From Nemertoderma westbladi (taxonomy: Eukaryota > Animalia > Xenacoelomorpha): a DNA stretch of 64,000 bases. Of the stretch, positions 7,124 through 62,988 are shown piece after piece. The stretch covers positions 10,511 through 74,510 of the forward strand of contig JAUCBJ010000550.1 in NCBI GenBank assembly GCA_032718475.1, in the 5' to 3' direction. Positions within the stretch are counted from its first letter, which is position 1. Each line of letters opens with the position of its first letter. The notes below the pieces were generated by a model. It did not search any database, was not told the origin of the DNA, and saw nothing but the letters and a program-made list of their open reading frames with translations. A program made the position numbers and the translations under genes.

Positions 7124-10100
7124 TTAATTATCTTGCTGCAGTGATAATAAATTGACCCTCTGTTTGACCTTTTTCTGATCGGCGATCTGATCTCTGAGTT
7201 CCAACAACTGGCCACTGAGTGCAGCTACGCGTTCTGTTGTGGCCGCCAGCTGAACTTGCAAAGACCTTAACTCTGATTCCTGACTGTCGCCATCGTCTGC
7301 AGCCAATGACAGGGCGCGCATTCTCGGGAACCAATCATGATTACGACTCTCCACCAATCCGTGGACATACCATTCGGGCCCTGTAAACTCAGTAGGATCT
7401 TTCACTCTAACGAGCACTATAAAATAAAGGTAACTCCACATGTTGTGTTCTAAATTAATATGTTCTTCAAACGACACTGTTCTATTATCAAAAGCGCTTC
7501 TATCAAGCGAGCAGATGAAACATGTATTTTTCAGGATTTCGTCGCGTTGCTGTTTATCACCTCGGAGATCGGCAAAAGTGTCGATGATGACTCCGAAAAT
7601 AAGGTTAAGAGTGATGATGATGACGATGAAAAAGAACAGCAAATCGTATATGACACGAACGATAAAGAGGGGTTCAGAAGAAGATGGGTGTCTAAGAACA
7701 TCACCAATGCCTCCGCCATTGCGTAAGCCTTGATTTAAAGTGGTAATGATACACATTATTAGAGTGTCGCAAGCGAGTTCTTTAAGATCATCATCATCTT
7801 GGATGACGTTTGTACCATTAATGATTTCAGTGACAAAACTGTATCCATCGTGATGTACACCATCATCATCGGGATCGCACTTGTCATCTAGACAAGCGCC
7901 GGCCTCCTGAGGAACTGGATCAACTTCAACCATAAAGTCTTCTCTAAAAAGGAGGTAGCCTACAATAGAAAATAGATAGACAAGAATGACAGCCAGAACA
8001 GCGGTGAGGACAATAGAGCGACCATTGCGAGTAACAGAACGAATTACGTTGAAAAGAGTTTCTTCTCTGTATACAACGTCAAATAGTAGGATACTGTAAA
8101 CAAAAGGATGTACATAGATTCCCAGAACAATGATCACAGTATAGCCAATATGGTAAAGGAATTCACCATCTGAAATGACTTTGGATATACCTTTGCTAAT
8201 TGTACCTCTGTTTCCCAAATAACTAATAATGAAAATTATTTTATTCATGACATTAATTACACCAAGTGTGAACAAAACTGGTACAATTCCTAAGGAATAA
8301 ATTAAAGTGAATATCAGTGACAACACAAAAGATCTAAGACCAGTTATTCGAGGTATAAAGATCAATGTTAGAGTAGATAGAAATAGAGCAGTCCAAATAA
8401 GTATCAAAATTCGCTTGTCTAAATCGTAATCGGTGGCCTCAAATGGATAGAATAGGGCCACAATAAGGTTACTGATAACAGCCAAATTAAATGCAATGCT
8501 CCCCCATAAACTCATCCTTTGGCTTAAGAAGAACAAGACGGAATGCTCTCTGAGTCGACATTGCCATTTCATTTCCCAAAACATATCATCACAGTGCTGA
8601 TAGAAAGCCGGCACCTTGCTGCCCTGATCGTCACGCTCTGTCGTTAAGTAGGCCTGGTTTTTGGTCTCATCTGTGAGGAACTGACAGACCCGGGGAATGG
8701 GAAACACGATCTGTTCCAAAGAGTGGCCAGCTCGCACTACTTCAATCTGGGCTGTTCTTTTCGCATAGTAGCTAAGAGCTTCGTCTGATGTGTTTTCAAG
8801 TTTGCCATCAGTTTTCAATTCAGTCATCAACTCCTTGTTGTGTTGAGCTAATTGGTGGGCTAATATATATACATTGTGGCCGACAGATTGGGACGATGAT
8901 TCTTTGCCACTGATTATATCGTCTGATGATATTTCTGACTCCATTGAACTGCATCTTTCTAAACTATATGCAGTTTTTATAACATCTATAAGGTCTTTTG
9001 TACTCATATTGTAGAGAATACGTTCGGCAGTCTCGGAGTCATTTCTGCTTTCCATAATAGCTAGTAAGAGTTTTGAAGCATTGTCTTTGACATCCAACAC
9101 CAAATCCATGTGCTTAAATCCCAGTGGGTTAATGTCATTTATAACCAAAGCAATAATTATATCGATGCCATTACTTTCATGTGTTGTTATGGCAGTTTGA
9201 TTGTCATGGCAAGGTCCTTGGCAATATTCTGTTAGGGTCTGCAATGTTTGATTGACTAAATGGACATTGTATTCGTTGATGTAAAGGCCCAGTAATCCGA
9301 GACCCCCAGTCGTGCTGCCACAAATGCAATCCAAAAACTGAAGGCATCCGCAAACCATGTTAAAGTTGGTGCGACTTTCTTGGGATCGCAGGTAATTCTG
9401 CAATTTAATGTTATGGTTTTCGCATAAAAGTTGAAGGAATCTCAGAATTGGTTGCATCACTTGTACAGGAGAACTCAAGGTTTTTCTTGGTTCCGATTTG
9501 TTGGTTTCCACATCTAGAATCGATTGAGATTGAGCTGATATACCCAATATAGCTTTTGTTGAACTATAATTATCACCTGCGGACTTATTAAGATTAGATG
9601 TAAATGTACCTGGCCTTTTTAAAGATTGTTTTCTTGGCTGCTCATCCTCTGTCACCGTATGAATGGACACTCCAGCCTTGATTTCAGCCATAGCCTCATT
9701 AATTTTGTCATAAAATACCGCAAAGAACTTCTCAGCTTTGTTTTCACTACAAAGTAATTCGAAGAAAGACTGCTGAATTATTCCATTTCCTCCTTCGAGT
9801 AAAGCGATGCCTAACTCTACTGTACCTATAAAGATAGCAATATCTGTGGTGTGGATCACTAAGTTTACTATAAGACGACTAGCTCCTTGACTATCAAGGT
9901 TACGCTGAATTTGACTCAGTGATAGATCAGATCGCCCTTTAGCCGGTAATACCTTAAATTCACCATTTACTTCGTGTACATTCAATGTTCCAAAATACCA
10001 CTTAAGTAATGAGAACCGAAGCTGTTTGCTTTTCAAGTTGAACTCAACATCCTCAATTGAAACACCTGGAATTAACATTTCTTTTAGTATTTTAAGAACC

Positions 10101-11791
10101 TTTATACAAAGTTTATCCTCATTTTGCTCTTCGAGATGATCTGTGTGTTTGATGAATGTAGCTATGAACCCACCAGATTCACAGTGTAGGTATGGCTCTG
10201 TGTCTTTAGGGAAAAGAAAGGATGGATTGTGCAGGACATCAACCAGCACTGAGAGTTCGGCTTGAATGAACATCTTGAGGCGATTATCAAGACTTTTTAC
10301 AACATTGAGCAGGCCTCCAACAATATTGCGATAATCTCTCGACATTCCGACCAAAGAGTCTCGATCAAGAGTACGGCTGCGGAAAGGTTTCAAGAACCCC
10401 CACTTACTGGAATACATATTGGAATGGAATTCGACATCTTTGGGGATTGGTAATTCCTGTACGTGGCAAATATTGATGAGAACTTTAACGCAAGACTCAA
10501 CAGCAAACCGTTGATTCCCTGTTAACCAGGAATAAGAAGCAATAGTGCTCATTGATTCAACTAGTTTTTGTATTGCCGTTTTTCTTAATTGAACGGCAGA
10601 AGTTTGATCGAAATAGGGACTCTTGAAAAAGGCGTTTACAACATTAGCTATTGTATCCGTAACATAATGTTCTAGTTTGACGTCAATATGACAGCGATCG
10701 GAACCGGGCGAGCTAATTCGTCTGATATCCAGGAGGAAGTTGTCAAAAAGTTGCCACATATGGTTGGAGATATATATTTCCTTCATTTCAACTTCTGTAT
10801 CGATGTAGCAGTGGTTGAGAAAATTTATGTATGAATCCTTCACCTCTGGAAGGCAGTCTGGATGAACAACAACAGCTGTTATTGTGTCAAGTGGTAGGAG
10901 AGAGTGGCATTTAATTTCTGTGAAGACATTCTTACCTTCCGTGCATACTGCCAACAAACGCACAAGGTGGATATGGAAGAGTAGAGGCGATGTTGGATTG
11001 GTTGTATCTCGGAACGACCGCATCATAGCAACCAAAGTATCCAATGCCTGCACATCGTTATAGAAGAGAAGCACTTCATCACCCGAGTTGCTAAGTTCAG
11101 CCATCAACATATCTTGCGTCTTTCTAATGAATCGACCGTCACATTTCACTATTGTTTGCAAAAACTTAATGTACGTAATATTTCTGCCATAAACTTCAAT
11201 GCAACGTACAATATGCTGCACAATTCGCTCACCAACACTGTTACACAACTCAAAATTGTTAAAAAATATTAGTCGACACGTTTCTGTTTCCAAGAGAGAA
11301 AGAAAACTTCGGTCACCATGCTGGCAAAACATAATCCTATCTAGATAGCGAAATAGTAACGACTGGTTGTTGGAGTTGTTCAGACAAAGATTTTGCAGGA
11401 AACTGTGGCATAAACGTTTGATCTCGTTCATCCGTAGATCGAAAGGATCGCAACTCATGTCGAGCAGCTCGAGAACAACCGAATGAGCGCCCATATTCTT
11501 GAGTAGCTGTTGTTCGTGTCTCCTGCTGCGTCTACCGGTAGGCCCATAATCGACACACAGTTTTATCAACCTGATTAAAATGTTCTGCAGTCGAACGTAG
11601 TTCTGTAAGGAACTCGATTCTATTCGAGGTCCGTGTTGTAAGTCTAGAGGAGCTCCTTCTTTGCCGAGTTTCTGGATTACATTCTGGCCTGTCTCGTTGT
11701 CCTTCCGTTTACTAATTTTCTCCCCTTTCGCTGGTCTATAGATCCACAACTCCGATTTCTCCTCTAGTAGACGAATTTCATCCAGATCTCT
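7124..11791 (-). CDS. ITPR: ITPR exon 20: giant terminal coding exon (ARM2/ARM3, 6-TM channel, pore, C-tail)
   Basis: cag|RDLDEIRLLEEKSELW continues into the supplied 1541-aa ORF; RFLQLLCENHN, LTEYCQGPCHDNQ, GLRNGGGIGDVLR, LNLIFGVIIDTFADLR, TCFICSL, EHNMW, coiled-coil tail. Confidence 0.97.
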   Translation of the reverse strand, partial: RDLDEIRLLEEKSELWIYRPAKGEKISKRKDNETGQNVIQKLGKEGAPLDLQHGPRIESSSLQNYVRLQNILIRLIKLCVDYGPTGRRSRRHEQQLLKNMGAHSVVLELLDMSCDPFDLRMNEIKRLCHSFLQNLCLNNSNNQSLLFRYLDRIMFCQHGDRSFLSLLETETCRLIFFNNFELCNSVGERIVQHIVRCIEVYGRNITYIKFLQTIVKCDGRFIRKTQDMLMAELSNSGDEVLLFYNDVQALDTLVAMMRSFRDTTNPTSPLLFHIHLVRLLAVCTEGKNVFTEIKCHSLLPLDTITAVVVHPDCLPEVKDSYINFLNHCYIDTEVEMKEIYISNHMWQLFDNFLLDIRRISSPGSDRCHIDVKLEHYVTDTIANVVNAFFKSPYFDQTSAVQLRKTAIQKLVESMSTIASYSWLTGNQRFAVESCVKVLINICHVQELPIPKDVEFHSNMYSSKWGFLKPFRSRTLDRDSLVGMSRDYRNIVGGLLNVVKSLDNRLKMFIQAELSVLVDVLHNPSFLFPKDTEPYLHCESGGFIATFIKHTDHLEEQNEDKLCIKVLKILKEMLIPGVSIEDVEFNLKSKQLRFSLLKWYFGTLNVHEVNGEFKVLPAKGRSDLSLSQIQRNLDSQGASRLIVNLVIHTTDIAIFIGTVELGIALLEGGNGIIQQSFFELLCSENKAEKFFAVFYDKINEAMAEIKAGVSIHTVTEDEQPRKQSLKRPGTFTSNLNKSAGDNYSSTKAILGISAQSQSILDVETNKSEPRKTLSSPVQVMQPILRFLQLLCENHNIKLQNYLRSQESRTNFNMVCGCLQFLDCICGSTTGGLGLLGLYINEYNVHLVNQTLQTLTEYCQGPCHDNQTAITTHESNGIDIIIALVINDINPLGFKHMDLVLDVKDNASKLLLAIMESRNDSETAERILYNMSTKDLIDVIKTAYSLERCSSMESEISSDDIISGKESSSQSVGHNVYILAHQLAQHNKELMTELKTDGKLENTSDEALSYYAKRTAQIEVVRAGHSLEQIVFPIPRVCQFLTDETKNQAYLTTERDDQGSKVPAFYQHCDDMFWEMKWQCRLREHSVLFFLSQRMSLWGSIAFNLAVISNLIVALFYPFEATDYDLDKRILILIWTALFLSTLTLIFIPRITGLRSFVLSLIFTLIYSLGIVPVLFTLGVINVMNKIIFIISYLGNRGTISKGISKVISDGEFLYHIGYTVIIVLGIYVHPFVYSILLFDVVYREETLFNVIRSVTRNGRSIVLTAVLAVILVYLFSIVGYLLFREDFMVEVDPVPQEAGACLDDKCDPDDDGVHHDGYSFVTEIINGTNVIQDDDDLKELACDTLIMCIITTLNQGLRNGGGIGDVLRHPSSSEPLFIVRVIYDLLFFFIVIIITLNLIFGVIIDTFADLRGDKQQRDEILKNTCFICSLDRSAFDNRTVSFEEHINLEHNMWSYLYFIVLVRVKDPTEFTGPEWYVHGLVESRNHDWFPRMRALSLAADDGDSQESELRSLQVQLAATTERVAALSGQLLELRDQIADQKKVKQRVNLLSLQQDN

Positions 11792-15915: not shown

Positions 15916-16732
15916 CTGAAAATTAAAAGACAGGTTTTTAAGACTACAAATTTTGGGTGGTTTTTTGGACAAAAAATAATGGCTCCAATTAATCAAATAT
16001 ATCTGTTACACTTAGATATGTTTAGTCAGAGAGCTCTTATTAGCCTCGCATGCTAAAGGATGAGTGGGACCGAGGTCATAAGAAAATAAAGTAGAAACTT
16101 CGTCGAATTTATTAGATTTGATCCATACTAACTTTTCGTTTCAAGGCAACTAGGGCCTCCACAGACTTTTAATTACGATTTAGGCCTAAGAGAAAGCCAG
16201 TGGGAATCTACCCAGCAATAATTATTTTATATTAATTAAATTATCTTGATGTTTGTGTCCCCACTATTGATTTTGCCCCATATTTTATTTCATATTAATT
16301 CTAATAGTACAGATATACAGAAATTATACGGAAATTAAACAACCGATACCGATATACATTATAAAAAACAACATTAAACCAACAATCAACCACTCTCCAC
16401 TAAACTATTCAACAAACAACTGCACTGCATTCACCCTTGTGAAAACGACATACTAACTAAATAAATTAGATAACGGTATCTAAAAAAATATATATAGTAG
16501 GTCATGACCCACCTATAACAATACATAATGTTCGAATGTTCGATTCCAGTTACAAATAACAGTTTAAGTACTAATTAATTATTAGAGTTTTAATAATGAT
16601 CACTTATGCATCTTTATTTACTTATGTATGTATTTCCTATTGATTCATATAATTTTGTTAGGTTTTCCCCGGGTTATAGTCCAACGTCTATACTAGTATT
16701 ATCTTGGGGTAAAATAGATATCGAATATAAAC

Positions 16733-18066
16733 AACATGACCCGTAATATAATGTCATTTGTCATTTTCTGATGAATAGGACCCAAGGACGCCTTGTACGG
16801 ACCCCCAAATTTTTCTACAAATCTTTATTCTTTATCTTTAAAAAAAGTGTCTCCGTCGTGTCTCGTGTTGGTACTAGTGGAAAGCTGACCGTGCAAGGAT
16901 TCCAAATATGAAAAAATATTTCCATTTGGTTGGGAAATAGCTGAGATATTGGCATTCGAATTTCGCATGTATTTGCTTCCACTGCAGGCCATTTATTCTA
17001 TTAAATAAATACACAATTTTCTAGAACATTTTGATTATATATGAATAATATATCCATACTAGCATGGCCTACTATATATATTATATATTATTATATATAC
17101 ATTCTATATAGTAGGCCATGATACTAGTATTATCATGTAGGCATTGCATTGTTGCCAATCTACTTATGAGATAAACAAAATGTTCTAGAATATTGTGTAT
17201 TTATTTAATAGAATAAATGGCCTGCAGCGGAAGCAAATACATGCAAAATTAAAATGCCCATATCTCAGCTATTTCCCAACCAAATTCAAATATTTTTACA
17301 TATTTGGAATACTTGCACTGTCAGCTTTCCACTAGTGCCAAAATTACTAAATGTTTGAAGAATAACTGCGGTGTAACTCGGTGCAATATCGACAATGACA
17401 CTTTTTTTAAACGCTTGTAGCTAAAGATTGAAAGCAAAAATACAAATTTTGGCTCACCCAGTCAGTGGTCGGGAGGTGAAACTAACTATGTTTCAAATTT
17501 CATGCAATCTCATTAACTTGTAGAAAAATTTGGGGGGGGGGGGGGGGCGGGGTGCTCACCTGAATTACGACACTATATTCTGGGACATGGTGTACAGTTG
17601 TTGCACACTCATGAGATAAATAATAATATACGTTCTAGAATGTTATGTATTCATTAAATGGAATAATTATTAATAATTATTCTCCAGTGAAAGGTAATTC
17701 TTGCAATCTTTGAACGCCTATATCTCAGCTGTTTCTCAACGAAGCTCAGACATGTTACCTATTTGGAATCCTTGTCATGCAAGCTTTCCAATGATGTGTA
17801 CGTACGTACAGGGGCCTAATGTGAAGAATGGCCACGATAGGATGGGTGCAATATCACAAAATACACTTTTTCTAAAACGCTTAGAAAAAAATTAAAGGCG
17901 AAACCGGAAATTCCGGCTTCATGGTAACAACCCCGGTGAGTTGAACTAGTTGTGTTTCAAATTTCAAGCAATATGATAAAGATTTGTAGAAAAATTGGGG
18001 GGGGGGGGGGGGGGGGGGGGGGCCGAGTCATCAAGAAAAGACACTATAAATACGGGTCATGGTGTA
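16733..18066. mobile_element. Foldback/MITE with long inverted arms and a duplicated right arm
   Basis: 16870-17031 inverted against 17177-17339; left end CATGACCCGTA versus right ends GGGACATGGTGTA (~17594) and TACGGGTCATGGTGTA (~18066). Confidence 0.78.
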
Positions 18067-18254
18067 TATTTAGTGGGGCGTGGGGGTGGGGGGGGGGGGG
18101 GGAATAAAATACTATGGGGGAAGCTCCTTCTACTGAGGGTGTGGAAAATTTAGTAGAATTAAAAACAAGTAGAAAATAGATTATTAACATTTAAAAAGCA
18201 TTGATTTTGCGTCAATCAATTAATTAATACTGCAATAGTTGAATAAGACTCGTA

Positions 18255-19904
18255 ATGAAGAATGTTAATTATGTAGAATCAGAAGACGTTGAAAATGTCG
18301 ATGTTGTAAACATCAACAATGTTAAAGATACAGGAATAGCTAAGTCAATTTCCATCCGATCTCTCGAGTCAACAGGCCAAAATGGAGAAAACATTTCAAC
18401 CACCTTATTGGGAATATATGTGTTATTTATGTTGGTATTCGGAATCTCTCTCGTGATATCTTCACATTTGCAGTTGGAAGTGACTAACACTCACGTTGAA
18501 TGCTTCTCTATATACGTGTACGTTCTGGGTATATTGTCACTTATTACTGTCATTGCGTTTTCCATGAAAGAGTTGAATGCCCCGGTAGACCATAGCAATG
18601 GCAACATGTTCTTAAAGGCTGGGGCTCTGTTGTTCTTCATGGCAAGTTTGACGGAAGACGGTATTGATGTCACTATTTGGTATAAATATGAGCAGCACCA
18701 CGTCTTAAACGCTACATTCCCGGCCACTATTGTGATCCGAGCAGTTTTTATGGGTACTCAACTTATGGCACTAATTCTCTATTCCGGAAAATGTCTACAA
18801 GTCCACCAAACAATATCCAAATGTTGCCTAGCCCAATGCGTCATGGGTAATGTATTTTTGTGGTTTCAAACAGGAATTATGGAAGCTGTCGAATCTCTAC
18901 ATCGTGAAAACCCAAGAAACATGACATCGGACTACTTACATCCTGTTACCATTGGAAGCAGTCTGGAAAATATTCAAAATCTTTCAAGAACTTTCTTCAT
19001 ACCATGTCGCATTGAATACTGCCTAATGGGTGCGACAATGATGTATTTCATGTTGAGAAATGTTGGTACTTCCCCATCAGAAAGTGGACAAGCCTCTTGT
19101 ACTTTGACCGACATTGATGTCAAAACCACCTCGTCTCAAACCGTAGATGATAAATCAGTCTCTTTGGCTATTGGATTAATAGCAGGATCTATATGTTTAG
19201 TATCCAGTTTTGTTGTGATCATAATATCATCAGTGTTACTTACAGAAGCCGCAGAAAAGAAATTAGAGACAATCTTCGTTAAAAATAGTTATGTTGGATA
19301 TTATATCACAATACAAGTAATTATGAGTGTTTGTGTAGCGATTTTAGGGTGGTCCATGCGTGTTAAACATACCTTCGAAAAGAATGAAAAAATTTACTTG
19401 GATAGAGCATTGCTGTTAATATCCCTTGGAGGTGCATTCGTAATGATATCTTTCAGTTTTATTGCCGGAATTTACAGTGACAATTCAAAAATAAACCAAC
19501 GTATACTACTGTTTGTTACTTACGGCACTTATATGTTTCAAGCGAGTTTACAAGTAATTGTTATACTTGATGGATTGCATCGGCGCGCCCATGCGGCTGG
19601 TGAGAAGTGGAGCAAAGGCCTTGTATTATTTATTATATTTGGAAATATATCATTGTGGATAGACAGCATTTTTGAGACAAAATTCAACACAGCCGTGATT
19701 CAGATTGAGTTCTTTGATTCTTGGCAGATGATACTGCACACGATGAGTCCTTTAATGATTTACTTCAGGTTCCATTCAACTGAATGCTTTTGCGAAATTC
19801 TGCATCATGCCTATTCAACTAAAGTTGGAGAGAAAAAGGAATCAAAGATGTCATGGGAAAGAACCCTGAGTAGAAAAATTAGAAGACAATTATCATTGAA
19901 ATAG
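18255..19904 (+). CDS. OTOP: Otopetrin-family proton channel, paralogue A (intronless, antisense in ITPR intron 13)
   Basis: 549-aa multi-pass membrane ORF with otopetrin motifs: HSNGNMFLKAGALLF, GNVFLWF, PCRIEYCL, LDRALLLISLGG, QASLQ, GNISLWI, PLMIYFRFHS. Confidence 0.9.
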   Translation: MKNVNYVESEDVENVDVVNINNVKDTGIAKSISIRSLESTGQNGENISTTLLGIYVLFMLVFGISLVISSHLQLEVTNTHVECFSIYVYVLGILSLITVIAFSMKELNAPVDHSNGNMFLKAGALLFFMASLTEDGIDVTIWYKYEQHHVLNATFPATIVIRAVFMGTQLMALILYSGKCLQVHQTISKCCLAQCVMGNVFLWFQTGIMEAVESLHRENPRNMTSDYLHPVTIGSSLENIQNLSRTFFIPCRIEYCLMGATMMYFMLRNVGTSPSESGQASCTLTDIDVKTTSSQTVDDKSVSLAIGLIAGSICLVSSFVVIIISSVLLTEAAEKKLETIFVKNSYVGYYITIQVIMSVCVAILGWSMRVKHTFEKNEKIYLDRALLLISLGGAFVMISFSFIAGIYSDNSKINQRILLFVTYGTYMFQASLQVIVILDGLHRRAHAAGEKWSKGLVLFIIFGNISLWIDSIFETKFNTAVIQIEFFDSWQMILHTMSPLMIYFRFHSTECFCEILHHAYSTKVGEKKESKMSWERTLSRKIRRQLSLK

Positions 19905-20169
19905 ATAAAAATCAGATATGAAGAAAAAAATATTGGTGATGGTTGATTTTTATTTATTTATTTTTTTATTTATTGGTGATGGCCGATAAAAAAAAATACG
20001 TAAACACGCAACCGTATAATTAACTGGAGATGAACATGTTGTTTAAGGGATGTTGTTTACTAGTACAACTTAGTAATTGAATTTCACCATTATTAATGAG
20101 CTAAAAAACAACTTTGAAAAAAAACATTGGGGAGAGAAGACGCAGAAGAAAACATTAAATTCGAAATAT

Positions 20170-23100
20170 AGGTGCCATAATCAATGGGGTTGGAGGTGTC
20201 ATTCTCAATGGTGTTGGAGGTGTCATACTCAATGGGGTTGGAGGTGTCATTCTCAATGGGATAGGATGTGTCATTCTCAATGGGATTGGAAGTGTCATTC
20301 TCAATGGGGTGAAGTGTCATTCTCAATGGGGTTGGAGGTGCCATAATCAATGGGATAGGAGGTGTCATTCTCAATGGGGTGGAGGTGTCATTCTCAATGG
20401 GATTGGAAGTGTCATTCTCAATGGGGTGAAGTGTCATTCTCAATGGGGTTGGAGGTGCCATAATCAATGGGATAGGAGGTGTCATTCTCAATGGGGTGAA
20501 GTGTCATTCTCAATGGGATAGGAGGTGTTATTTTCAATGGGGAGGAGGTGTCATTCTCAATGGGGTTGGAGGTGTCATTCTCAATGTGGTGGAGGTGTCA
20601 TACTCAATGGGATAGGAGGTGTTATTTTCAATGGGGAGGAAGTGTCATTCTCAATGGGATAGGAGGTGTCATTCTCAATGTGGTGGAGGTGTCATACTCA
20701 ATGGGGTGGAGGTGTCATTCTCAATGGGGTGAAGTGTCATTCTCAATGGGATAGGAGGTGTCATTCTCAATGCGGTTGAGGTGTCATACTCAATGGGGTG
20801 GAGGTGTCATTCTCAATGGGATAGGAGGAGCCATTCTCAATGGTGTTGGAGGTGTCATACTCAATGGGGTGGAGGTGCCATTCTCAATGGTGTTGGAGGT
20901 GTCATACTCAATGGGGTTGGAGGTGTCATTCTCAATGGGATAGGATGTGTCATTCTCAATGGGATTGGAAGTGTCATTCTCAATGGGGTGAAGTGTCATT
21001 CTCAATGGGGTTGGAGGTGCCATAATCAATGGGATAGGAGGTGTCATTCTCAATGGGGTGGAGGTGTCATTCTCAATGGGATAGGAGGTGTCATTCTCAA
21101 TGTGGTGGAGGTGCCATAATCAATGGGGTGGAGTGTCATTCTCAATGGGATAGGAGGTGTCATTCTCAATGTGGTGGAGGTGCCATAATCAATGGGGTGG
21201 AGTGTCATTCTCAATGGGATAGGAGGTGTCATTCTCAATGGGGTTGGAGGTGTCATTCTCAATGGGGTGGAGGTGTCATTCTCAATGGGATAGGAGGTGT
21301 TATTTTCAATGGGGAGGAGGTGTCATTCTCAATGGGATAAGAGGTGTCATTCTCAATGGGATTGGAAGTGTCATTCTCAATGGGGTGAAGTGTCATTCTC
21401 AATGGGATAGGAGGTGTCATTCTCAATGTGGTGGAGGTGTCATACTCAATGGGGTGGAGGTGTCATTCTCAATGGGATAGGAGGTGTCATTCTCAATGGG
21501 ATTGGAAGTGTCATTCTCAATGGGGTGAAGTGTCATTCTCAATGGGATAGGAGGTGTTATTTTCAATGGGGAGGAGGTGTCATTCTCAATGGGGTTGGAG
21601 GTGTCATTCTCAATGTGGTGGAGGTGTCATACTCAATGGGGTGGAGGTGTCATTCTCAATGGGGTAGAGGTGTCATTCTCAATGGGATAGGAGGTGTCAT
21701 TCTCAATGGGATTGGAAGTGTCATTCTCAATGGGGTGAAGTGTCATTCTCAATGGGATAGGAGGTGTTATTTTCAATGGGGAGGAGGTGTCATTCTCAAT
21801 GGGATAAGAGGTGTCATTCTCAATGGGATTGGAAGTGTCATTCTCAATGGGGTGAAGTGTCATTCTCAATGGGATAGGAGGTGTTATTTTCAATGGGGAG
21901 GAGGTGTCATTCTCAATGGGATAGGAGGTGTCATTCTCAATGGGGTGGAGATGTCATTCTCAATGCGGTGGAGTTGTCATTCTCAATGGGATATGAGGTG
22001 TCATTCTCAATGGGGTGGAGGTGTCATTCTCAATGGGGTGGAGTTGTCATTCTCAATGGGATATGAGGTGTCATTCTCAATGGGGTGGAGGTGTCACTCT
22101 CAATGGGGTGGAGATGTCATTCTCAATGGGGTAGAGGTGTCATTCTCAATGGGGTAGAGGTGTCATACTCAATGGGGTGGATGTGTCATTCTCAATGGGG
22201 TGGAGGTGTCATTCTCAATGGGGTGGAGATGTCATTCTCAATGGGGTAGAGGTGTCATACTCAATGAGATAGGAGGTGACATTCTTAATGGTGTAGAGGT
22301 GTCATACTCAATGGGATAGGAGGTGTCATACTCAATGGGGTGGATGTGTCATTCTCAATGGGGTGGAGGTGTCATTCTCAATGGGGTGGAGGTGTCATTC
22401 TCAATGTGGTGGAGGTGTTATTCTCAATGGGGTGGAGTTGTCATTCCCAATGCGGTTGAGGTGTCATTCTCAATGGGGTAGAGGTGTCATACTCAATGAG
22501 ATAGGAGGTGTCATACTCAATGGGGTGGATGTGTCATTCTCAATGGGGTGGAGGTGTCATTCTCAATGGGGTGGAGATGTCATTCTCAATGGGGTAGAGG
22601 TGTCATACTCAATGAGATAGGAGGTGACATTCTTAATGGTGTAGAGGTGTCATACTCAATGAGATAGGAGGTGTCATACTCAATGGGGTGGATGTGTCAT
22701 TCTCAATGGGGTGGAGGTGTCATTCTCAATGGGGTGGAGATGTCATTCTCAATGGGGTAGAGGTGTCATACTCAATGAGATAGGAGGTGACATTCTTAAT
22801 GGTGTAGAGGTGTCATACTCAATGGGATAGGAGGTGTCATACTCAATGGGGTGGATGTGTCATTCTCAATGGGGTGGAGGTGTCATTCTCAATGGGGTGG
22901 AGGTGTCATTCTCAATGTGGTGGAGGTGTTATTCTCAATGGGGTGGAGTTGTCATTCCCAATGCGGTTGAGGTGTCATTCTCAATGGGGTAGAGGTGTCA
23001 TTCTCAATGGGATAGGAGGTGTCATTCTCAATGGGGTGGAGGTGTCATACTCAATGGGATAGGAGGTGTCATTCTCAATGGGGTGGAGGTGTCATTCTCA

Positions 23101-29086: not shown

Positions 29087-29281
29087 ATACTGAAAAGCAG
29101 TAGTAAAAGTAGAACTGGGTTATTACCATATCATGCAAGGCTATATTGATAGGATAACTCAGTTGAGTCGTCTTACATTTACTGGCTGGCTGCTAGTACT
29201 TCCTTGCAGTAGCCGCAATAGCATAATTATCAATGCGATGTTACCCACTCATGCGATAATCACGCAAGTAGATTTATTTAC

Positions 29282-45389: not shown

Positions 45390-45479
45390 CTAAAAAACAA
45401 ACCGCCACTCTCAGTTCTATACTACCATTATAAACAGTATGCTGCATTGTAGCGGCATATAAATTAAAAATGCTACACC

Positions 45480-45655
45480 GGCTGTCCAGTATCCACCACG
45501 CTTATTATCTGCATGAGGCTGTCAAAGCAGAAGATTGTGCACAGGTTGGTCATCACGGCGAAAGCAATGACCTGCAAAGCGGAGGCGGTTCTGTTCAAGT
45601 CTCAAGCTTTGGGGGGGGGGGGGGGGACCAACGTGACATCTCCAATATTGAGTTG
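45480..45655 (-). mobile_element. LINE 3' fragment
   Basis: Reverse complement resembles 29500-29645. Confidence 0.65.
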
Positions 45656-46658
45656 TTAACAAGTTAATATTAATATCGTTTTAAATGATAAATAAAATGA
45701 ATGATAATGAAGATGTATAGGGTATGGGTGGAGATGCGTGCATTGTACAATAAAACCGGCGTAGTATCGTTAAAGCTAGAGCCGATAGAAATTAGACCCC
45801 AGTATTTTTCACCACTCAGTTCTATATCCTATGTAATAATGGAGCTTAAAGTGTTTGATACGGATACATATTTAAGGCTCTTGGGTTACCCACAACTAAA
45901 TGGTAAGACTATACATTTATTTTTTCTTTTATTTATCCCGAAAAAGGCACATGTGGAGTATATCAGTGTTTCTGATGTTATATTTCACTTTTTAAACTAC
46001 AGTAGGTCGGCACTTAGTAATTTTGTAAATGTTTTGAATATATAATAAATTGGCCACAATGTCAAAAACAATTATTACATATTATAAAATATTATTACGA
46101 ATCCACTTCTCCATGATCTCCTTGTGAAGGTTGTTAACCTTGGATCGAATGCTACACAACTTCACACTCAGTATGACACCAGAATTATTAAAGGAGAGTA
46201 GCTCTGTATGGAGTTATAACGTATATTTTATATGATGTCGTTCAACTAACACATCTTACTTCACAGAAATCCTTGCTCTACAATCAATACCATTCAACAA
46301 CTACATAGGATTTTCTCACAAAGATAGAATACATACATACTGTAGGAATTCACGTACAATTCGTCACATCCAATTAAATTAGTTAATTTCTGACTTAGCG
46401 AATTTTAAGAATTGTTTACAGAAAGAATATAAAAGTAGCCTAATGCGTTTATTTTTGATGAATTAATTTGGTTTGAACATACGGTTTTATAATTTTTTGA
46501 TCATTATTAGTACGGTGCATTCTAAATCGCAATATATTTATTATATGTGCGGCGACTTATAAACGTACATTTCTGCAGTGTCATGCTTTTTTATCTTCAT
46601 GTGAGTGAAGTATACCAGACTTGCTGTTGCCAGTCTTGATTTACTTTGCATTTACCAC

Positions 46659-46880
46659 CATATGAAGAATACCAAGGGTTTTCACTATAAATACGGTTAC
46701 AAAAGGGCTGAATTTAACCAAAACAATAAACGAAAAGTATCTGTATAGGTTATAAGATACGAAAGAACCGCTATAAAACACGTAATAAGGATAAATTTCG
46801 AAAATTGCAAATCCTTCGTTTAAACAATTCCAATAGAATTTCAACCGAAAATTGGAAATCTGGTATCCTTCACATGGGCG
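46659..46880. mobile_element. Short MITE, same family as 40772-42379
   Basis: CATATGAAGAATACCAAGGGTTTTCACT ... CTGGTATCCTTCACATGGGCG; internal similarity to 42011-42379. Confidence 0.7.
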
Positions 46881-49231
46881 ATTTTCTTATTGGATATTAT
46901 TCCGTGTACATACTGCAGATACTTTAGATCGAGTGTCACCGGCATCCGCAGAAACAATGCCTCACCCTCCTGATAGAGATTAATTTATGTACAGTAATGT
47001 TATTGGCCTGATGAGATATGTATTAAGAAAATAAACCGCACGAAATATTAATTATGTTGCAAAGACGTCCAAAACAAAGACCAAAGACCCCCTAACGCTC
47101 TTTTGGACTCTCGCGTTAGGTAAAACGCGACTTGACCTCTTTGTTTTGTACTCACCCTCCAAAATGTTATGTTGTACAATAATAATAGTCAGAATTTGTT
47201 AAGTTTCTATTTCATTGACTGTTTGTTTATCTTATTGAACTCCCTGATTTTCTAATTCCCTTCTTAAATCGACTTCGTACCGCGTAGAAACAGTCATGTT
47301 AATTGAGCAACTGGCCTAGAAGTAATATTCCAACTAGTATTGTCGCAATAAAGTATAGTGCATTACCAGATTTGCTAACGGCAGCAGGACCAACACAGGA
47401 CTACTGTAGAACAAATCTGTCACTGTTGCGGTGGCAGTGTCCTTCTAATCTGAAAGGTAGTGTCTGCAGAGTGATAGTCGGCACAGGTTCCATATAGAGA
47501 ATTCCCTCGCGTTTCTCAAAATGACCATCGAATTTTGTAACAAATGTCTCGTAGAATCGGCATCGCAGCAGTAAACTTATTATGGATACCTGAGGTGAAG
47601 CAGAGGCAGCAACACTGAATCGTAAACTTTACAAAAAATTGTTACGATTGTTAGTTTACTTTATATGGATATTATCTTTACGAGTCTCCCTTTATGTGTC
47701 GGTCCACATATCGAGACAGGAGTGATGGTAGTCGCAGTGGACGTAACATTTATGGGACGCCGGCAAAATACTGTAGAATAGAATTTGAGCTCCAATACCA
47801 CATACTACTAGGATCGGCATGCTGCATATTGCAGCTGCATTTTTAAGAATGCTGTGCCGGCTTGTCAACAAAATTGCACCGCCAATACCACATGGTGAGA
47901 TTCAGCATTCATGATAAAAAAAAAGATGCGATGTTGGTAGACCAGTCTTGTTCTAGAATTAACCCGAATGCCGGTACACCTGGAATCCCTCCAAACCACG
48001 CACGCGTTTGGACTTTACTTGGTCATATCAGAGTATATATATACCCTGTAAAGTTATGAGATATGTGAGACCCATCAAGGGACCTCGTGTCTTCTGCCGT
48101 AAAAGCCTAGCAGATGTTGCCAAATAGCAGCACAGGCTCTACATTAAGTGAATTAACGGCACCAGGAATACATTTCGTTCAGAGAAGGTTTCATTCCATG
48201 TGATTCCCATTTCCTTGATAGTTTATGGTTTGTTGTCCTTTCGTTCGTACTCGGAGGTCTTCAACGGATCTCCGAATCCTTGATCTAGATATCAGTAGCC
48301 AGCAGGTCGGTAACCTGCTAGGGGGAATCAAAGTTAGAGTTCGATTTTGGTCTTTGTGGCATTTACAAATTGGACGCTGCCTGTTCCAGAATGTGGAGTA
48401 AGCTTTCGGCACAAGATTTAACTGAAATTTAGAATTAAAGGCCTCTCACATGTAAAGTAAGATTTCCTCTACTTCTACTAACAGAGGCTGGTTGTAATTA
48501 CACACCATCTATATTATGTTGTTCAAGAGATATTGGCAGCAAATAGTTCACCAGAGTAATGGAGCTTGGAGCATGGACCTTGTTTTGGCAAATTGTTGTT
48601 GTCAATGTGAATTCCTTCAAGAATTATGCTGGGGAAGAATAAGTATCAATAAAGTTATTGCTATAAGATACTTTCTGTTTCATAACAAGAATACGATAAT
48701 TTAATGTTTCCTATATTTAGTTGAACAATAGCTATAATTAACGAACCAATCATCATATTCATCTGAAATTTGGTAGGGGTTACCTACTGTATGTACATCG
48801 CTTAATTTGAAATTATACATACAGTCGGACATTCTATAGTGATTCGGTTCAGACGGTTCTATAATTGTACCCCTTTACTAAAGTTAATCTATACTTCTTG
48901 CTGCGCGAAGGCCCCATGGACGTGTTTCCCTGTATCATATTTTGTCACATGTATCATATTTTGTCACTTGAATTATATTTTGTCACTTGTATCTGATTAT
49001 GTGATGTAAATTATAGAGATGATAATATCTGTTTTTTAATATTTTAGATTCTTACTTCTTCAATAGGCTGTTATTTACAAACAAACATTCCACACAAATA
49101 ATCAATTTCAAGACGTTTATTTCTCTGTGAACTAACTCGCATGAGAGACTATTTTAGCGAAATCTCGTTTCGAGACATAGGTAAATTCAAGTATCAGATG
49201 AGAATTAACCATCGAGCATCACACCTCTGTA

Positions 49232-49975
49232 ATGAGCCGTGTCTTGTCATTCGGCATTGGCATTACTACTCTCTTCGTTGGCTTGGTACATGGCGTTAAT
49301 GTTACCTGCCGCCATGGACGCCTGCAGACCATGTTATCCTCCAACCATGACAATGTGGCAGATTTGAACTGGGATTGGCGCGACACTGGGGGATCGTTAG
49401 TAGCAGGTTTAGGATCTGTCTCGGATGAGCAATGCCCAGTTTGTCATATGTGGGAGTCAATGTCAGCAACCTTCTTGAAGCAATACCCTGAGTTAAAGGT
49501 TATGGCCGGCGCGAGATACGAAACCTGCGCATACGGTGGTGGTTGCGAAGCCCAATCCGAACACCCGTGCACCAACTTCACAGAGTTTATGCAGGAGTTT
49601 TTAGACGCGGAATACGGCACAGGAGTAACAGTGTCGATTATAGAGAGCTTTTGCATGGAAATATGCTGCGAAGGGGCGGAAGTCTGCAACTCAATTGACC
49701 ATCCCGAATTCCATTTACCCGCTTATATAAACAGCGACGGGACCTACAACTGGGAACATCCAGTCTGGCAACTTGATCTGGATGGAAACCCGATACCTTA
49801 CAATAGAGCGGGACCTGAAGATTCAACAACAACAACAACAACAACTACTACTACTGATCCTCCTACGACCGCAACACCGGGCAGTTCTACATTGGTTGAA
49901 AGCTTCGCTAACAAAATATTTGGAAGTTTCAATGTTTTTCTTGTTGCTTTTATGGGTTTATTGTTTTTCCATTGA
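49232..49975 (+). CDS. Secreted/GPI-anchored Cys-rich protein, Ly6/uPAR (three-finger)-like; antisense in ITPR intron 8
   Basis: Signal peptide, 10 Cys ending in CCEGAEVCN (LU-type CCx(n)CN), Thr-rich stalk, hydrophobic C-terminus with no cytoplasmic tail. Confidence 0.78.
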   Translation: MSRVLSFGIGITTLFVGLVHGVNVTCRHGRLQTMLSSNHDNVADLNWDWRDTGGSLVAGLGSVSDEQCPVCHMWESMSATFLKQYPELKVMAGARYETCAYGGGCEAQSEHPCTNFTEFMQEFLDAEYGTGVTVSIIESFCMEICCEGAEVCNSIDHPEFHLPAYINSDGTYNWEHPVWQLDLDGNPIPYNRAGPEDSTTTTTTTTTTDPPTTATPGSSTLVESFANKIFGSFNVFLVAFMGLLFFH

Positions 49976-50172
49976 TTTTTGACTAATTGACAATCATTAG
50001 TGAGGCTGATTTTGCCTTTGCACTTTTCATGGAAATATATTTATCAATATTATATGGTGTTTTGGTATAGGTAAACTTGTTTACATCATTCGTGCTGCCC
50101 TGAAAGGGTATCGGTATATTGGGAGATTTTCCTAAAAGAGAACGAATTCTATACAGCTTATTGTCTCTACAT

Positions 50173-51514
50173 GGGCATTTCCACAGAAAATGGGACACGA
50201 TATGAAAATAAAACTTTAAAAAATAAGCAACATGTCATGATTTAATGGGTAAAATCTCATAAATTTTTCGAATTTGACAAAATTTACATTGATTTGAGGG
50301 TATAAAGTAGGAAATTTTACGATTATATCGACCATCATCAAGACTAATGTAAAAACAAAAAAAAAATACCAAAGGCAAAATATTTTTGTTACTGTTTATC
50401 CATATAGGCTATCCTTGGTATCATTGTAAACAGCCGTAAATGCACATTCCAATGAGGTAGTTCTACGCCATAAACATAGAACGCTTCTAATACAATAAGC
50501 ATTAAAAGCTACCTGTATCCAATTGTAACGTCCGACACATTTTTTACATTTTTTCTCAAATACTTATCTATTGTATGGCAAACCATATCAAAATTAAAAT
50601 GACTCAATGCCGACGTAAGATGGCGTCTTTTGTGTCATTTATAACAATCCAGGCTACTATAAAGTCTGTGATTTCAGTGATTGAAGTTCAGTAACGTCCG
50701 ACACCTGTAACGCCCGACACTATTATTATTATGTATTTAATGTCTGAATTGCAGTGTATAATGTAAAGGCATATTCCAGAACTGTATTGTTTATATGCAT
50801 GTAGGCCTACTACTAAATACTAGGACCTAAAACATAAAATCTTTTTGTCCATATGATTTTCAACAATAAAATAAATATATAAATAAAAATAGTTTTCAAT
50901 AATTGCGATTTACAATTCAAAATTCACACCTTAGTATTTTGATAATATATTTGGTAATTCTTGGTGAAATTTAAAATGGTTTTCAGATTCGGAATCTACA
51001 GATGAAGGCGGTTCTAATGATATCTAGAGTACATTCCATAGACAAAAAATATAGCCGACATAAAGCCAAATAAAGCCATGGTGGCTAAATATTGCTAATT
51101 TTTAAGTAACGTCCAACACGAAACGTCCGACACCATTCCGCACAACTTTGAATTGCAAATGTCGGTTTCAAAAGATCTGCAGTGCAATTGCGAAAACCTT
51201 TTCAAAATATAATAGTTTAGCTATAATTTGAGCTCAACAATAATAACATACCAGTCTTCGGCATTAATTGCAATCAAAAATAAAATTTGTGGAATAAAAA
51301 GTGTCCTATTTTTGTAACGTCCAACACCTTTTTAAAAGTCAACTTTGTAAGAAGAATCACGTTTCCCAATGCAAAGTATTTGCGCTATTCTGAAAAATTA
51401 ATAAATTGTTTCATTTATTCAATGCAATCTGATGTCAAAAGTATTTTCGGAAATTTAAAGAAAAACATTCAAAATTCGAGAATGTCCGTAACGTCCGACA
51501 CCGTGGAATTGCCC
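50173..51514. mobile_element. Non-autonomous DNA transposon with short TIRs and repeated internal motif
   Basis: GGGCATTTCCAC ... GTGGAATTGCCC; GTAACGTCCGACAC-type motif recurs about 7 times inside. Confidence 0.65.
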
Positions 51515-52846
51515 ATACGAAACCCATACGAATTTAATTATTTCGTTTTGGGTATTTTATGTAGAATCTTAAAATTAAAGTCAGTATTAATTATATACTG
51601 TAATTAACACAGAGCTAATAACAGTCTGAACATTGACCGCACTGGATATAGATCGTCAGACTTTGTGCGTAATCCCTGGCCTAACGGTCGAAGAAAATTT
51701 ACTTTTTTACTTTTACTTGTTGTCTGTAACAAAATCTCAATTTCATTAAAAAATAGCGTTTGAACAATATACCGGGAAAAACAGCAGTACTACGGTTATC
51801 GCTTTGTCAGGAAATTATGATAACCAGTTTTGTACTATACCGAACTAGACTGCTGGATATTTAATGAGGTAATTTATTTATCATCATAAGTATAAAATTA
51901 AGACATCACCTGCTTAAAATACGGCTAACATTCTTTGGTGACATTTATTTAAATTTTAATTTTGTATATCTCCTATAAGTGAATTAATATCTATAATGTT
52001 TAATTATTATATTAAGTTTCAATCAGTATAATATTTTTCTTATAAATAGACCTCAAGTGTCGGTTTTACTAAACATACCATTCCAATGGTGTAGACTGTG
52101 AGGCTGGCTGTTCTTACGTCATGTTACTTACCGCACCAAGACTCATTAAAGTGTCAACCGGGAGCAACTTAGTAAAACCTGAGAAGCAATTACAACAATG
52201 GCTCATAATTATGAAAAAGATTTTTGTTTTTCATAAAATACGAATTTATTATTCCAGGATTAGCATCACCTCATTAGCATCATTCCAGGATTTCACATCC
52301 CCTTGCTCAGGTTAACCACAGTACTGGTCTACTGTTTGAGGATTCATACATACATATACATACCAGATAGTGCAGGTAAACGTTCAGACACCCTCGCCGT
52401 CGCCATACGCCTCCCTAAAACTTACACTGCATAAAAGCAACGAATTACGGTTAAGTTGATTGATGACGGATATGAAGTCTACCGTGAAGTAGGCCTACAC
52501 TGTACAGGAATACAAGTGACATTCCTCAAATTTAGCAATAAAGCTAGTGTAGTTGAAGGTAAAAGACGTCATATTTTGGCAAATACCTTGTTTCCCTTGT
52601 ATCCATGCGTTTGTAAGGAAAAAGTCAAATCTTATATACGTTAAGACGTCGGTAATAAATCGCTCGGAAGGCAATATTTTAGAATAAAAGATTACAAAAT
52701 ACATGACATTTAAACTTGACAAGCACCAACTATTGGTTGTATTTGAAAGATCCTGAAATAGAACCGCCCAAAACTGCATGATTATTTTTAATGTTTTCGT
52801 ACCACCATACTACAGTATAAATATATTTATAGACCCCCCAACTTAC

Positions 52847-62791: not shown

Positions 62792-62988
62792 CTGTTCAGA
62801 GGACAAATCTTGTAGAGACAATCGCGAAACTTGCTAGGTGGGTTTATTAGGTCACCGTGTTCTGGGTCAACCACGCAACGTTCATCAACCAATCCGAGCG
62901 TAGATAGGAACCCAGATACGGGACCCTCGGCGTATATGGAAACTATATCGCCGATCCTAAGAATTCTAGAATCTGATAGAACATCCAT
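62792..62988 (-). CDS. ITPR: ITPR coding exon 1 (suppressor domain start)
   Basis: [40 protein letters not shown]...[13 protein letters not shown]; donor AG|gttcgt. Confidence 0.93.

What the first reader, a model, noticed from the sequence alone, without database searches (positions are those of the whole stretch)
7124..62988. IP3 receptor as host of four intact nested genes: two proton channels, a phosphoinositide pseudophosphatase and a three-finger-like GPI protein
Seen: introns 8, 9 and 13 each contain complete, stop-free genes, all intronless or nearly so. Established: ITPR releases ER Ca2+ downstream of PLC; otopetrins are H+ channels used in acid sensing and biomineralisation (otoconia, larval calcification); inactive MTMRs are adaptors of PI3P/PI(3,5)P2 phosphatases; some Ly6 proteins (Lynx1, quiver/sleepless) modulate ion channels. 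Inference: this may be a co-regulated Ca2+/H+/phosphoinositide module for sensory or calcifying cells. It may instead be neutral gene insertion into large introns. I know of no such arrangement in vertebrate ITPR loci.
Basis: partly seen in the sequence, partly recalled or inferred. Interest (0 to 1): 0.8.

Follow-up and report, generated by a model that had tools for sequence, protein, structure and literature searches.

The report
Four nested genes, one odd otopetrin
An invertebrate's intact IP3-receptor gene holds four open genes in its three longest introns, which is likely ordinary gene nesting and not a shared calcium/acid module; one of the two nested otopetrins lacks the glutamate that studied family members need to pass protons, so it is predicted to work differently or not to conduct.

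Summary
The architecture is real. A 20-exon, 2,623-aa IP3-receptor gene (minus strand, 62988-7124) splices into one open frame. Intron 8 holds a 247-aa cysteine-rich orphan (+). Intron 9 holds a two-exon, 818-aa MTMR10-like pseudophosphatase on the host's own strand. Intron 13 holds two intronless otopetrins (+, 37% identical). These are the three longest of 19 introns.

Nothing here supports a co-regulated Ca2+/H+/phosphoinositide module. Expression and synteny could not be tested. Published fly data show nested pairs are no more co-expressed or co-annotated than random pairs, and hosts with several nested genes are common. The scan noted a similar four-gene nesting in another animal (e1-9713496).

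Two corrections. The three-finger and GPI labels are plausible but unconfirmed. 'Two proton channels' is doubtful: otopetrin B has Gln at the TM6 glutamate (Glu-to-Gln abolishes Xenopus OTOP3 current), Asn at the TM9 aspartate and His at the TM12 phenylalanine beside them, while otopetrin A keeps the Glu/Asp/His set. Otopetrin B may be a rewired or non-conducting channel, which is the one testable novelty; the scan noted mussel otopetrins lacking the relay histidine (e1-9859615).

The parts
7124..62988 (-). IP3 receptor (ITPR) host gene, 20 coding exons, 2,623 aa. Exons: 62988-62792, 62209-62095, 61332-61173, 60413-60180, 59542-59338, 54687-54510, 53532-53380, 53039-52847, 45389-45232, 31435-31312, 30574-30442, 30140-30005, 29421-29282, 15915-15703, 14772-14621, 14382-14221, 13722-13503, 13229-13082, 12517-12335, 11791-7124
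7124..11791 (-). ITPR exon 20, a single 4,668-nt exon holding 59% of the coding sequence, including the whole channel domain
45390..52846 (-). ITPR intron 8 (7,457 nt), host of the cysteine-rich orphan gene
31436..45231 (-). ITPR intron 9 (13,796 nt), host of the MTMR gene; also two tandem-repeat arrays and LINE fragments
15916..29281 (-). ITPR intron 13 (13,366 nt), host of both otopetrins, separated by a 5.8-kb satellite
49232..49975 (+). Cysteine-rich orphan ORF, 247 aa: hydrophobic N-terminus (4-22), ten Cys ending in CC-x5-CN, Thr-rich stalk, hydrophobic C-terminus (229-247); Ly6/three-finger-like and GPI-anchored by pattern only. A strong acceptor at 49048 suggests a 5' UTR intron
   Evidence: no homologue
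42444..44425 (-). MTMR10/11/12-like pseudophosphatase, coding exon 1 (same strand as host); the catalytic loop lacks the His-Cys pair and carries a 4-residue insertion
39290..39764 (-). MTMR coding exon 2, followed by AATAAA 144 nt after the stop
18255..19904 (+). Otopetrin A, intronless CDS, 549 aa; keeps Glu254 (TM6), Asp383 (TM9), His507 (TM12); Phe504 replaces the C-pore triad Tyr
26629..28326 (+). Otopetrin B, intronless CDS, 565 aa; Gln258, Asn393 and His516 at the positions of CeOTOP8 Glu325, Asp439 and Phe563; keeps His520 and both QNY triads
27400..27402 (+). Codon CAA (Gln258) of otopetrin B at the TM6 glutamate position
27805..27807 (+). Codon AAT (Asn393) of otopetrin B at the TM9 aspartate position
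28174..28176 (+). Codon CAC (His516) of otopetrin B at the TM12 phenylalanine position, four residues before the relay His520
20170..25938 (.). 23-bp-unit satellite between the two otopetrins
34411..38950 (.). 15-bp-unit satellite in intron 9, starting 340 nt downstream of the MTMR stop

Best explanation
An intact 20-exon IP3-receptor gene carries four open genes in its three longest introns, and these guests likely arrived by three unrelated insertions or local moves and are likely regulated apart from the host, not as one signalling module. Shown: the gene structures, strands and family assignments. Inferred: the two otopetrins are one arrival followed by an old tandem duplication (adjacent, same strand, 37% identical); three of the four guests lie antisense, where their signals cannot disturb host splicing; the same-strand MTMR gene is likely tolerated because joining its splice sites to host exons gives only out-of-frame products, so the host must skip them and read through its poly(A) signal. 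Predicted protein roles: ITPR is a normal IP3-gated ER calcium channel; the MTMR is a catalytically dead adaptor; otopetrin A is likely a proton channel; otopetrin B has likely lost the standard Glu-to-His proton relay (my odds: non-conducting, regulatory or other-ion role 0.45; rewired His-based conduction 0.30; early decay or a sequence error 0.25); the orphan is likely a surface-anchored three-finger protein.
For: Host introns 9, 13 and 8 are the three longest of 19 (13,796, 13,366, 7,457 nt; median 637) and keep 3.4, 4.2 and 6.7 kb after removing guests and satellites. Three of four guests are antisense and all have 0 or 1 coding introns, matching the general pattern: 71% opposite-strand in flies, hosts with as many as 13 guests (PMC5174743); nested pairs not more correlated than random pairs (median rho 0.019 vs 0.032) and not more often in shared GO categories (PMC3814207); most mammalian pairs show no positive or negative relationship (PMC11694760). 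Joins ITPR exon 9 to MTMR exon 2 and MTMR exon 1 to ITPR exon 10 are both out of frame, and the six in-frame acceptors ahead of the MTMR frame score 0.5 or lower against 1.8-10.5 for 18 of 19 host acceptors. LINE reverse-transcriptase remains lie in intron 9. Otopetrin B: alignments to CeOTOP8 and otopetrin A; Glu321Gln abolishes XtOTOP3 current (PMC6483595).
Against: No expression or synteny data were obtained, so independence of regulation is a prior from other animals, not a result for this locus. Four guests is at or above the 95th percentile for mammalian hosts (three in mouse, four in human). An intron-containing same-strand guest in a probably essential host is the class that is depleted in flies. 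[quoted passage not shown] The orphan and the MTMR gene lie head to head around host exon 9, only 4.8 kb apart. 'Intronless' does not show retroposition here, because the host itself has a 4.7-kb exon; no parent copies could be looked for.
Confidence: 0.68

Rival explanations
1. Local coupling without a functional module: the orphan gene and the MTMR gene share a bidirectional promoter region around ITPR exon 9, and MTMR transcription would shift the host towards intronic polyadenylation or a shortened isoform, so guests and host influence each other mechanically.
For: Head-to-head layout (49232 + and 44425 -) with exon 9 between them; only 806 nt from the exon 9 donor to the MTMR ATG; candidate 5' UTR acceptors at 44626 (minus) and 49048 (plus); AATAAA after the MTMR stop inside host intron 9; precedents of guest-driven premature host polyadenylation (PMC11694760) and guest-driven short host transcripts (PMC12274878).
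Against: No start-site or RNA data; equally strong cryptic acceptors and donors occur elsewhere in introns 8, 9 and 13, so the site scores alone say little; 800 nt is enough for a separate promoter.
Confidence: 0.2
2. The first reader's module: selection keeps ITPR, the otopetrins, the MTMR adaptor and the surface protein together because they are co-expressed in acid-sensing or calcifying cells and act in one Ca2+/H+/phosphoinositide pathway.
For: All four guests are membrane or signalling proteins and all are open; a minority of mammalian nested pairs are highly correlated; human ITPR1 is regulated by its nested antisense lncRNA EGOT (PMC6471868).
Against: The functional link is drawn after the fact and at most three guests are independent; myotubularins act on PI3P/PI(3,5)P2, not on the PLC substrate PI(4,5)P2 (established knowledge, recalled); fly nested pairs share GO terms less than neighbours do; one of the two 'proton channels' lacks the essential glutamate; the animal's phylum is unresolved, so a calcifying or sensory cell type cannot even be named.
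Confidence: 0.07
3. On otopetrin B only (a separate question from the nesting): it is a young pseudogene, a rare allele or carries assembly errors, and the residue changes mean nothing.
For: Gln258 (CAA) and Asn393 (AAT) are each one base from Glu and Asp codons, and His516 (CAC) is one base from the Tyr codon that otopetrin A has there; one sequence only, no RNA, no orthologue.
Against: The 565-codon frame is open, keeps both QNY triads, His520 and the TM12 proline, and is recognised as an otopetrin at 0.94 by the Atlas after diverging to 37% identity from its neighbour; the three changes fall at one structural site, the inter-barrel interface.
Confidence: 0.25

Closest known systems
Host/nested protein-coding gene pairs of animals (Drosophila: PMC3814207, PMC5174743; mouse and human: PMC11694760; C. 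elegans: PMC12274878)
   Same: Large conserved host, guests wholly inside the longest introns, mostly antisense, guests short and intron-poor, several guests in one host including a tandem pair.
   Different: Four protein-coding guests is at the upper end for mammals; one guest is same-strand and has its own intron, the rarer class; I found no paper on protein-coding guests in an ITPR gene (one search of an open-access library).
Human ITPR1 with nested antisense lncRNA EGOT (PMC6471868)
   Same: A gene nested antisense in an ITPR intron.
   Different: EGOT is non-coding and reported to regulate ITPR1 by RNA pairing; the guests here are protein-coding and no regulatory link is shown.
Otopetrin proton channels with solved structures: CeOTOP8 (8UG4), mouse OTOP2 (8UG6), zebrafish OTOP1 (6NF4), chicken OTOP3 (6NF6), Xenopus OTOP3 (6O84)
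   Same: Pfam PF03189 match, similar length, N-pore QNY triad and TM12 His in both genes; otopetrin A keeps the TM6 Glu and TM9 Asp.
   Different: Otopetrin B has Gln for the TM6 Glu, Asn for the TM9 Asp and His for the Phe of the FYR motif; otopetrin A reads Tyr-Phe-Arg instead of Phe-Tyr-Arg. Both are intronless in the coding region.
Inactive myotubularins MTMR10/11/12 (closest fetched: Priapulus MTMR10-like P0121)
   Same: Best match (30% over residues 71-777, E 2e-95), N-terminal GRAM-like region aligned to MTMR2, acidic residues in place of the catalytic His-Cys.
   Different: Four extra residues in the dead catalytic loop; the Pfam 3-PAP domain listed for P0121 was not detected in exon 2; only one coding intron.
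Ly6/uPAR three-finger surface proteins (Lynx1, quiver/sleepless, CD59; names and pattern recalled)
   Same: Signal-like N-terminus, ten cysteines ending CC-x5-CN, Thr-rich stalk, hydrophobic tail; Atlas leads are TGF-beta/activin receptor ectodomains and DUF753 (0.75-0.84).
   Different: No sequence or profile match in any library searched; lacks the usual N-terminal C-x2-C; long inserts between cysteines; fold not confirmed.

Membership tests
Nested (host/guest) gene structure | Guest coding sequence lies wholly inside one intron of an intact host gene | tested here: met
   Host model with 20 exons in one frame; four guest CDSs inside introns 8, 9 and 13
Nested (host/guest) gene structure | Guest UTRs and promoters also lie inside the intron, and guests are transcribed | not testable with these tools
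   No RNA holder listed; the MTMR 5' end could reach beyond host exon 9
Co-regulated gene module | Correlated expression of host and guests | not testable with these tools
   No RNA holder listed
Co-regulated gene module | Arrangement conserved across species | not testable with these tools
   No genome held; no related loci in metagenome contigs
IP3 receptor (ITPR) | Ins145_P3_rec, MIR, RIH, RIH_assoc and Ion_trans domains in order | tested here: met
   full-length alignment
IP3 receptor (ITPR) | IP3-binding basic residues, pore filter and C-terminal zinc-finger motif | tested here: met
   Binding-core motifs at 263, 494 and 553 align with dugong ITPR1; filter and zinc-finger motifs located at 2427, 2492 and 2517; their roles are recalled
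Otopetrin family | PF03189 match above the curated cut-off | tested here: met
   144 and 112.5 bits against 27.8; PDB matches; Atlas 0.94 for B
Otopetrin family | Twelve transmembrane helices in two barrels | tested here: inconclusive
   Simple hydropathy found 7 and 8 segments; AlphaFold model of B unusable, pLDDT 33; sequence alignment covers both halves
Proton-conducting otopetrin (gene A) | TM6 Glu, TM9 Asp and TM12 His | tested here: met
   Glu254, Asp383, His507 align to CeOTOP8 Glu325, Asp439, His567
Proton-conducting otopetrin (gene A) | C-pore Gln-Asn-Tyr triad and FYR motif | tested here: inconclusive
   Gln433 and Asn464 kept, Tyr replaced by Phe504 with Tyr503 before it; the passages read do not give the effect of Tyr-to-Phe
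Proton-conducting otopetrin (gene B) | TM6 glutamate of the Glu/His relay | tested here: not met
   Gln258 aligns to CeOTOP8 Glu325 and mouse OTOP2 Glu250; Glu321Gln abolishes XtOTOP3 activity
Proton-conducting otopetrin (gene B) | TM9 aspartate | tested here: not met
   Asn393 aligns to CeOTOP8 Asp439 and otopetrin A Asp383; the mouse OTOP2 alignment is offset by a gap here; Asp509Asn slows desensitisation and does not stop current
Proton-conducting otopetrin (gene B) | TM12 histidine and both QNY triads | tested here: met
   His520; Gln179/Asn209/Tyr259 and Gln442/Asn474/Tyr517
Proton-conducting otopetrin (genes A and B) | Measured proton current | not testable with these tools
   Needs electrophysiology
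Inactive myotubularin MTMR10/11/12 | Myotubularin domain with the catalytic Cys loop replaced | tested here: met
   PF06602; loop lacks His-Cys/Ser against MTMR2 and matches the acidic loop of MTMR10-like proteins
Inactive myotubularin MTMR10/11/12 | Closer to MTMR10-like than to MTMR9-like or active myotubularins | tested here: met
   302 bits to P0121 against 116 and 109 to two MTMR9-like proteins; 7 hits only, no tree built
Inactive myotubularin MTMR10/11/12 | C-terminal 3-PAP domain (PF12578) | tested here: not met
   No Pfam family for exon 2 at E up to 10, although it aligns with P0121 across the junction
Ly6/uPAR three-finger proteins | 8-10 cysteines ending in CC-xn-CN | tested here: met
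   Cys 26, 68, 71, 99, 105, 113, 141, 145, 146, 152 followed by Asn; the pattern itself is recalled
Ly6/uPAR three-finger proteins | Profile match to a Ly6/uPAR/activin-receptor family | tested here: not met
   No Pfam family; 0 hits among 1.84 billion representatives; Atlas leads all under 0.9
Ly6/uPAR three-finger proteins | Three-finger beta fold | tested here: inconclusive
   Single-sequence AlphaFold model, pLDDT 34
Ly6/uPAR three-finger proteins | Signal peptide and GPI anchor | tested here: inconclusive
   Hydrophobic ends at 4-22 and 229-247 by hydropathy; no dedicated predictor available

The most novel reading that the evidence does not exclude
Otopetrin B is a natural otopetrin with a rebuilt core: the TM6 glutamate that papers call absolutely conserved is Gln, the TM9 desensitisation aspartate is Asn, and the gating phenylalanine one turn above the relay histidine is a second His. 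It would either pass protons by a His-His relay with slow desensitisation, or act as a non-conducting subunit that tunes its neighbour otopetrin A in a heterodimer. Either would be a new kind of otopetrin and a natural test of the Glu/His relay model.
Probability: 0.35. Interest if true: 0.62.

Novelty: new member of a known kind. Interest (0 to 1): 0.36.

Why it matters
The nesting is one more example of a common animal genome layout and matters mainly as an annotation trap: a gene finder could split ITPR or fuse it with the same-strand MTMR gene. If the module idea were true it would be a rare case of functionally selected nesting, but nothing here points that way. The part worth a bench test is otopetrin B. 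The route protons take through otopetrins is still debated, and a long-diverged, open gene lacking the key glutamate while gaining a histidine beside it offers a natural variant to test that route, with otopetrin A as an adjacent control.

Tried and rejected
Expression: one search of sequencing runs with 42400-50000 listed no RNA holder; this is no evidence either way, and no reads could be laid. Own genome: none held, so parent copies and other otopetrin paralogues could not be sought. Synteny: metagenome scans with otopetrin B (271 pattern matches, 0 confirmed) and MTMR exon 1 (62 matches, 0 confirmed) gave no loci. Homologues: otopetrin A search found 0 of 7,996 candidates at E up to 0.001; none of 3 guest proteins looked up is in the collection exactly; so I could not count how often other otopetrins lack the glutamate. 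Folds: both AlphaFold jobs failed (orphan pLDDT 34; otopetrin B pLDDT 33); no fold search was run on them. No complex prediction was sent for an A/B heterodimer, for lack of alignments. Rejected: an ITPR-MTMR fusion protein (annotated sites out of frame, in-frame acceptors weak); guests as alternative ITPR exons (three are antisense, all have own start and stop); structured RNA genes (0 Rfam matches). Phylum: a tree of the model with 26 of the 120 fetched ITPRs put it on a long branch beside an annelid sequence, with no outgroup and no echinoderm, xenacoelomorph or cnidarian rows; I draw no taxon from it. Literature: 0 papers held all of 'Itpr', 'nested', 'intron of', 'IP3 receptor gene'; listings showed no title on a natural otopetrin without the glutamate or on a non-conducting otopetrin; the library lacks most subscription papers, and I read no supplements, where family alignments could show such variants.
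Full report
Host gene. Six-frame translation and tblastn with fetched ITPR proteins located the exons. Twenty exons from 62988 to 7124 on the minus strand join into 7,872 nt, 2,623 aa and one terminal stop; 18 of 19 introns are GT-AG, intron 14 is GC-AG; the product is 53-54% identical along nearly its whole length to 4 of 4 ITPRs compared. Pfam finds the expected domains in order. The last exon is 4,668 nt, 59% of the coding sequence. A tree of the model with 26 of the 120 fetched ITPRs places it on a long branch, 54-58% identical to all rows and outside the sampled vertebrates, arthropods and molluscs; it lacks an outgroup and several phyla, so the animal's phylum is not determined.

Guests. 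Intron 8 (52846-45390) holds a 247-aa ORF on the plus strand (49232-49975). Intron 9 (45231-31436) holds an 818-aa myotubularin on the minus strand, the host's own strand, in two coding exons (44425-42444, 39764-39290); a Priapulus MTMR10-like protein aligns over residues 71-777 and straight across the junction. Intron 13 (29281-15916) holds two intronless otopetrins on the plus strand (18255-19904 and 26629-28326), 37% identical and separated by a 5.8-kb satellite. Each guest stop is followed by an AATAAA or ATTAAA within 250 nt, which is weak evidence in AT-rich DNA. The shortest ORF exceeds chance: 0 of 300 base shuffles of intron 8 reached 247 codons. The host introns are the three longest of 19 (median 637 nt).

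MTMR. The catalytic loop lacks the His-Cys pair of MTMR2 (the solved chain is a Cys-to-Ser form) and has acidic residues like MTMR10-like proteins, with four extra residues. It scores 302 bits against the MTMR10-like protein and 116 and 109 against two MTMR9-like ones (the search returned only 7 proteins). The 3-PAP domain was not detected in exon 2. 'Pseudophosphatase' is supported.

Orphan. It has hydrophobic ends, ten cysteines closing with CC-x5-CN and a Thr-rich stalk, and a strong plus-strand acceptor at 49048 suggests a 5' UTR intron. It has no Pfam match, no hit among 1.84 billion representatives and no meaningful PDB match (best E 0.71). Atlas leads of 0.75-0.84 are TGF-beta/activin receptor ectodomains, DUF5354, DUF753 and an unnamed cluster, all below the level the tool counts as more than a lead. 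The fold prediction failed. A GPI-anchored three-finger protein is the likeliest reading, from a cysteine pattern I recall, but membership is not shown.

Otopetrins. Both match PF03189 and solved otopetrins. Gan et al. (PMC11343839, passages) describe a proton relay between a TM6 glutamate and a TM12 histidine, call both absolutely conserved, and show that the TM12 phenylalanine (Phe563) must move for the two to meet. Otopetrin A keeps Glu254, Asp383 and His507, though its FYR motif reads Tyr-Phe-Arg. Otopetrin B has Gln258 at Glu325, Asn393 at Asp439 and His516 at Phe563, and keeps His520 and both QNY triads. In Xenopus OTOP3, Glu321Gln abolishes current and Asp509Asn slows desensitisation (PMC6483595, passages). 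In zebrafish OTOP1 the equivalent Glu267, Phe570 and His574 line one site (PMC12549899, passages; 10.1101/542308, passages). So three changes fall at one interface. Against over-reading: each change is one base from the residue in otopetrin A; there is one sequence and no RNA; tolerance differs between subtypes, since human OTOP1 stays partly functional with Gln, Asn, Glu and other residues at the relay histidine although the Ala form is dead (PMC9585144, passages); human OTOP3 can also pass anions (PMC13579931, passages); and I could not count such variants in other invertebrates. Tandem otopetrin genes and lineage-specific expansions are known (PMC3038909, passages).

Is it a module? I obtained no expression or synteny data, so the verdict rests on anatomy and priors. 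In Drosophila 9.5% of genes are in nested structures, guests sit in long introns, 71% are antisense, and nested pairs are no more alike in expression or GO terms than random pairs (PMC3814207, parts 1-2 of 4 read); hosts carry up to 13 guests (PMC5174743, passages). In mammals most pairs show no relationship, a minority are highly correlated, and the 95th percentile is three or four guests per host (PMC11694760, passages). In C. elegans co-expression is relatively common (PMC12274878, abstract and outline). PMC8467205 I saw only as a listing. This locus fits the ordinary pattern: longest introns, three of four antisense, few introns, one tandem pair. Human ITPR1 hosts the antisense lncRNA EGOT (PMC6471868, passages); one search found no paper on protein-coding guests in ITPR.

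What is less ordinary. The MTMR guest is same-strand and has an intron, the class depleted in essential fly hosts. Joining its splice sites to host exons 9 or 10 gives out-of-frame products, and the six in-frame acceptors ahead of its frame score 0.5 or lower in a matrix built from the host's 19 acceptors, so a fusion protein is unlikely. The host must still read through the guest's poly(A) signal. The orphan and MTMR genes point away from each other across exon 9, so a shared promoter region and mechanical interference with the host are a real rival (0.2), distinct from a functional module (0.07).

Mechanism committed to. Three unrelated arrivals into introns of a repeat-rich genome (26% of the window is tandem repeat; LINE remains in intron 9), one later duplicated; independent promoters; host splicing skips the guests. 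Shown: structure, strands, families, residue changes. Inferred: origin, independence, all protein activities. Whether the guests are retrocopies is open, as the host's own giant exon points to general intron loss in this lineage.

Verdict. Observation confirmed; module not supported; a new member of a known kind. Interest 0.36, carried mostly by otopetrin B. Earlier scan notes (unchecked AI notes) report a comparable four-gene nesting in another animal and mussel otopetrins lacking the relay histidine; none covers this locus.

Noticed in passing
window 55599-59361 (ITPR intron 5): A 34-bp satellite of about 110 units begins inside the end of exon 5 and repeats the exon end with its splice donor; 59 copies of the AG|GTACAG donor word. 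The scan has noted several larger arrays of this type in the same genome.
   Followed up: partly
window 15702-14773 (ITPR intron 14): The only donor that keeps the frame is GC (GC-AG intron).
   Followed up: partly
window 11791-7124: A 4,668-nt terminal coding exon after 19 short exons, a 3'-biased lack of introns; from recall, several intron positions also differ from vertebrate ITPR1, which I could not test.
   Followed up: no
window 47380-47298, minus strand (intron 8): A short frame after a stop reads like a GPI or membrane tail, preceded by a 75-codon open frame with no Pfam match; possibly the remnant or last exon of a fifth small gene.
   Followed up: partly
window 16868-17341 (intron 13): A 474-nt element that is 84% identical to its own reverse complement, MITE-like.
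   Followed up: no
window 32068-32601, 29520-29775, 31707-31822, 45492-45615: Broken LINE-like pieces: reverse-transcriptase fragments in intron 9 and related short copies in introns 8, 9 and 12.
   Followed up: partly
window 34411-38950 and 20170-25938: Long strand-skewed satellites: a 15-bp unit with almost no G on the plus strand (303 copies) and a G-rich 23-bp unit (248 copies); the first gives stop-free frames of over 1,500 codons that are repeat artefacts.
   Followed up: no
window 19761-19775 (otopetrin A): The FYR motif reads Tyr-Phe-Arg, swapping the two aromatic residues and removing the C-pore triad hydroxyl.
   Followed up: partly
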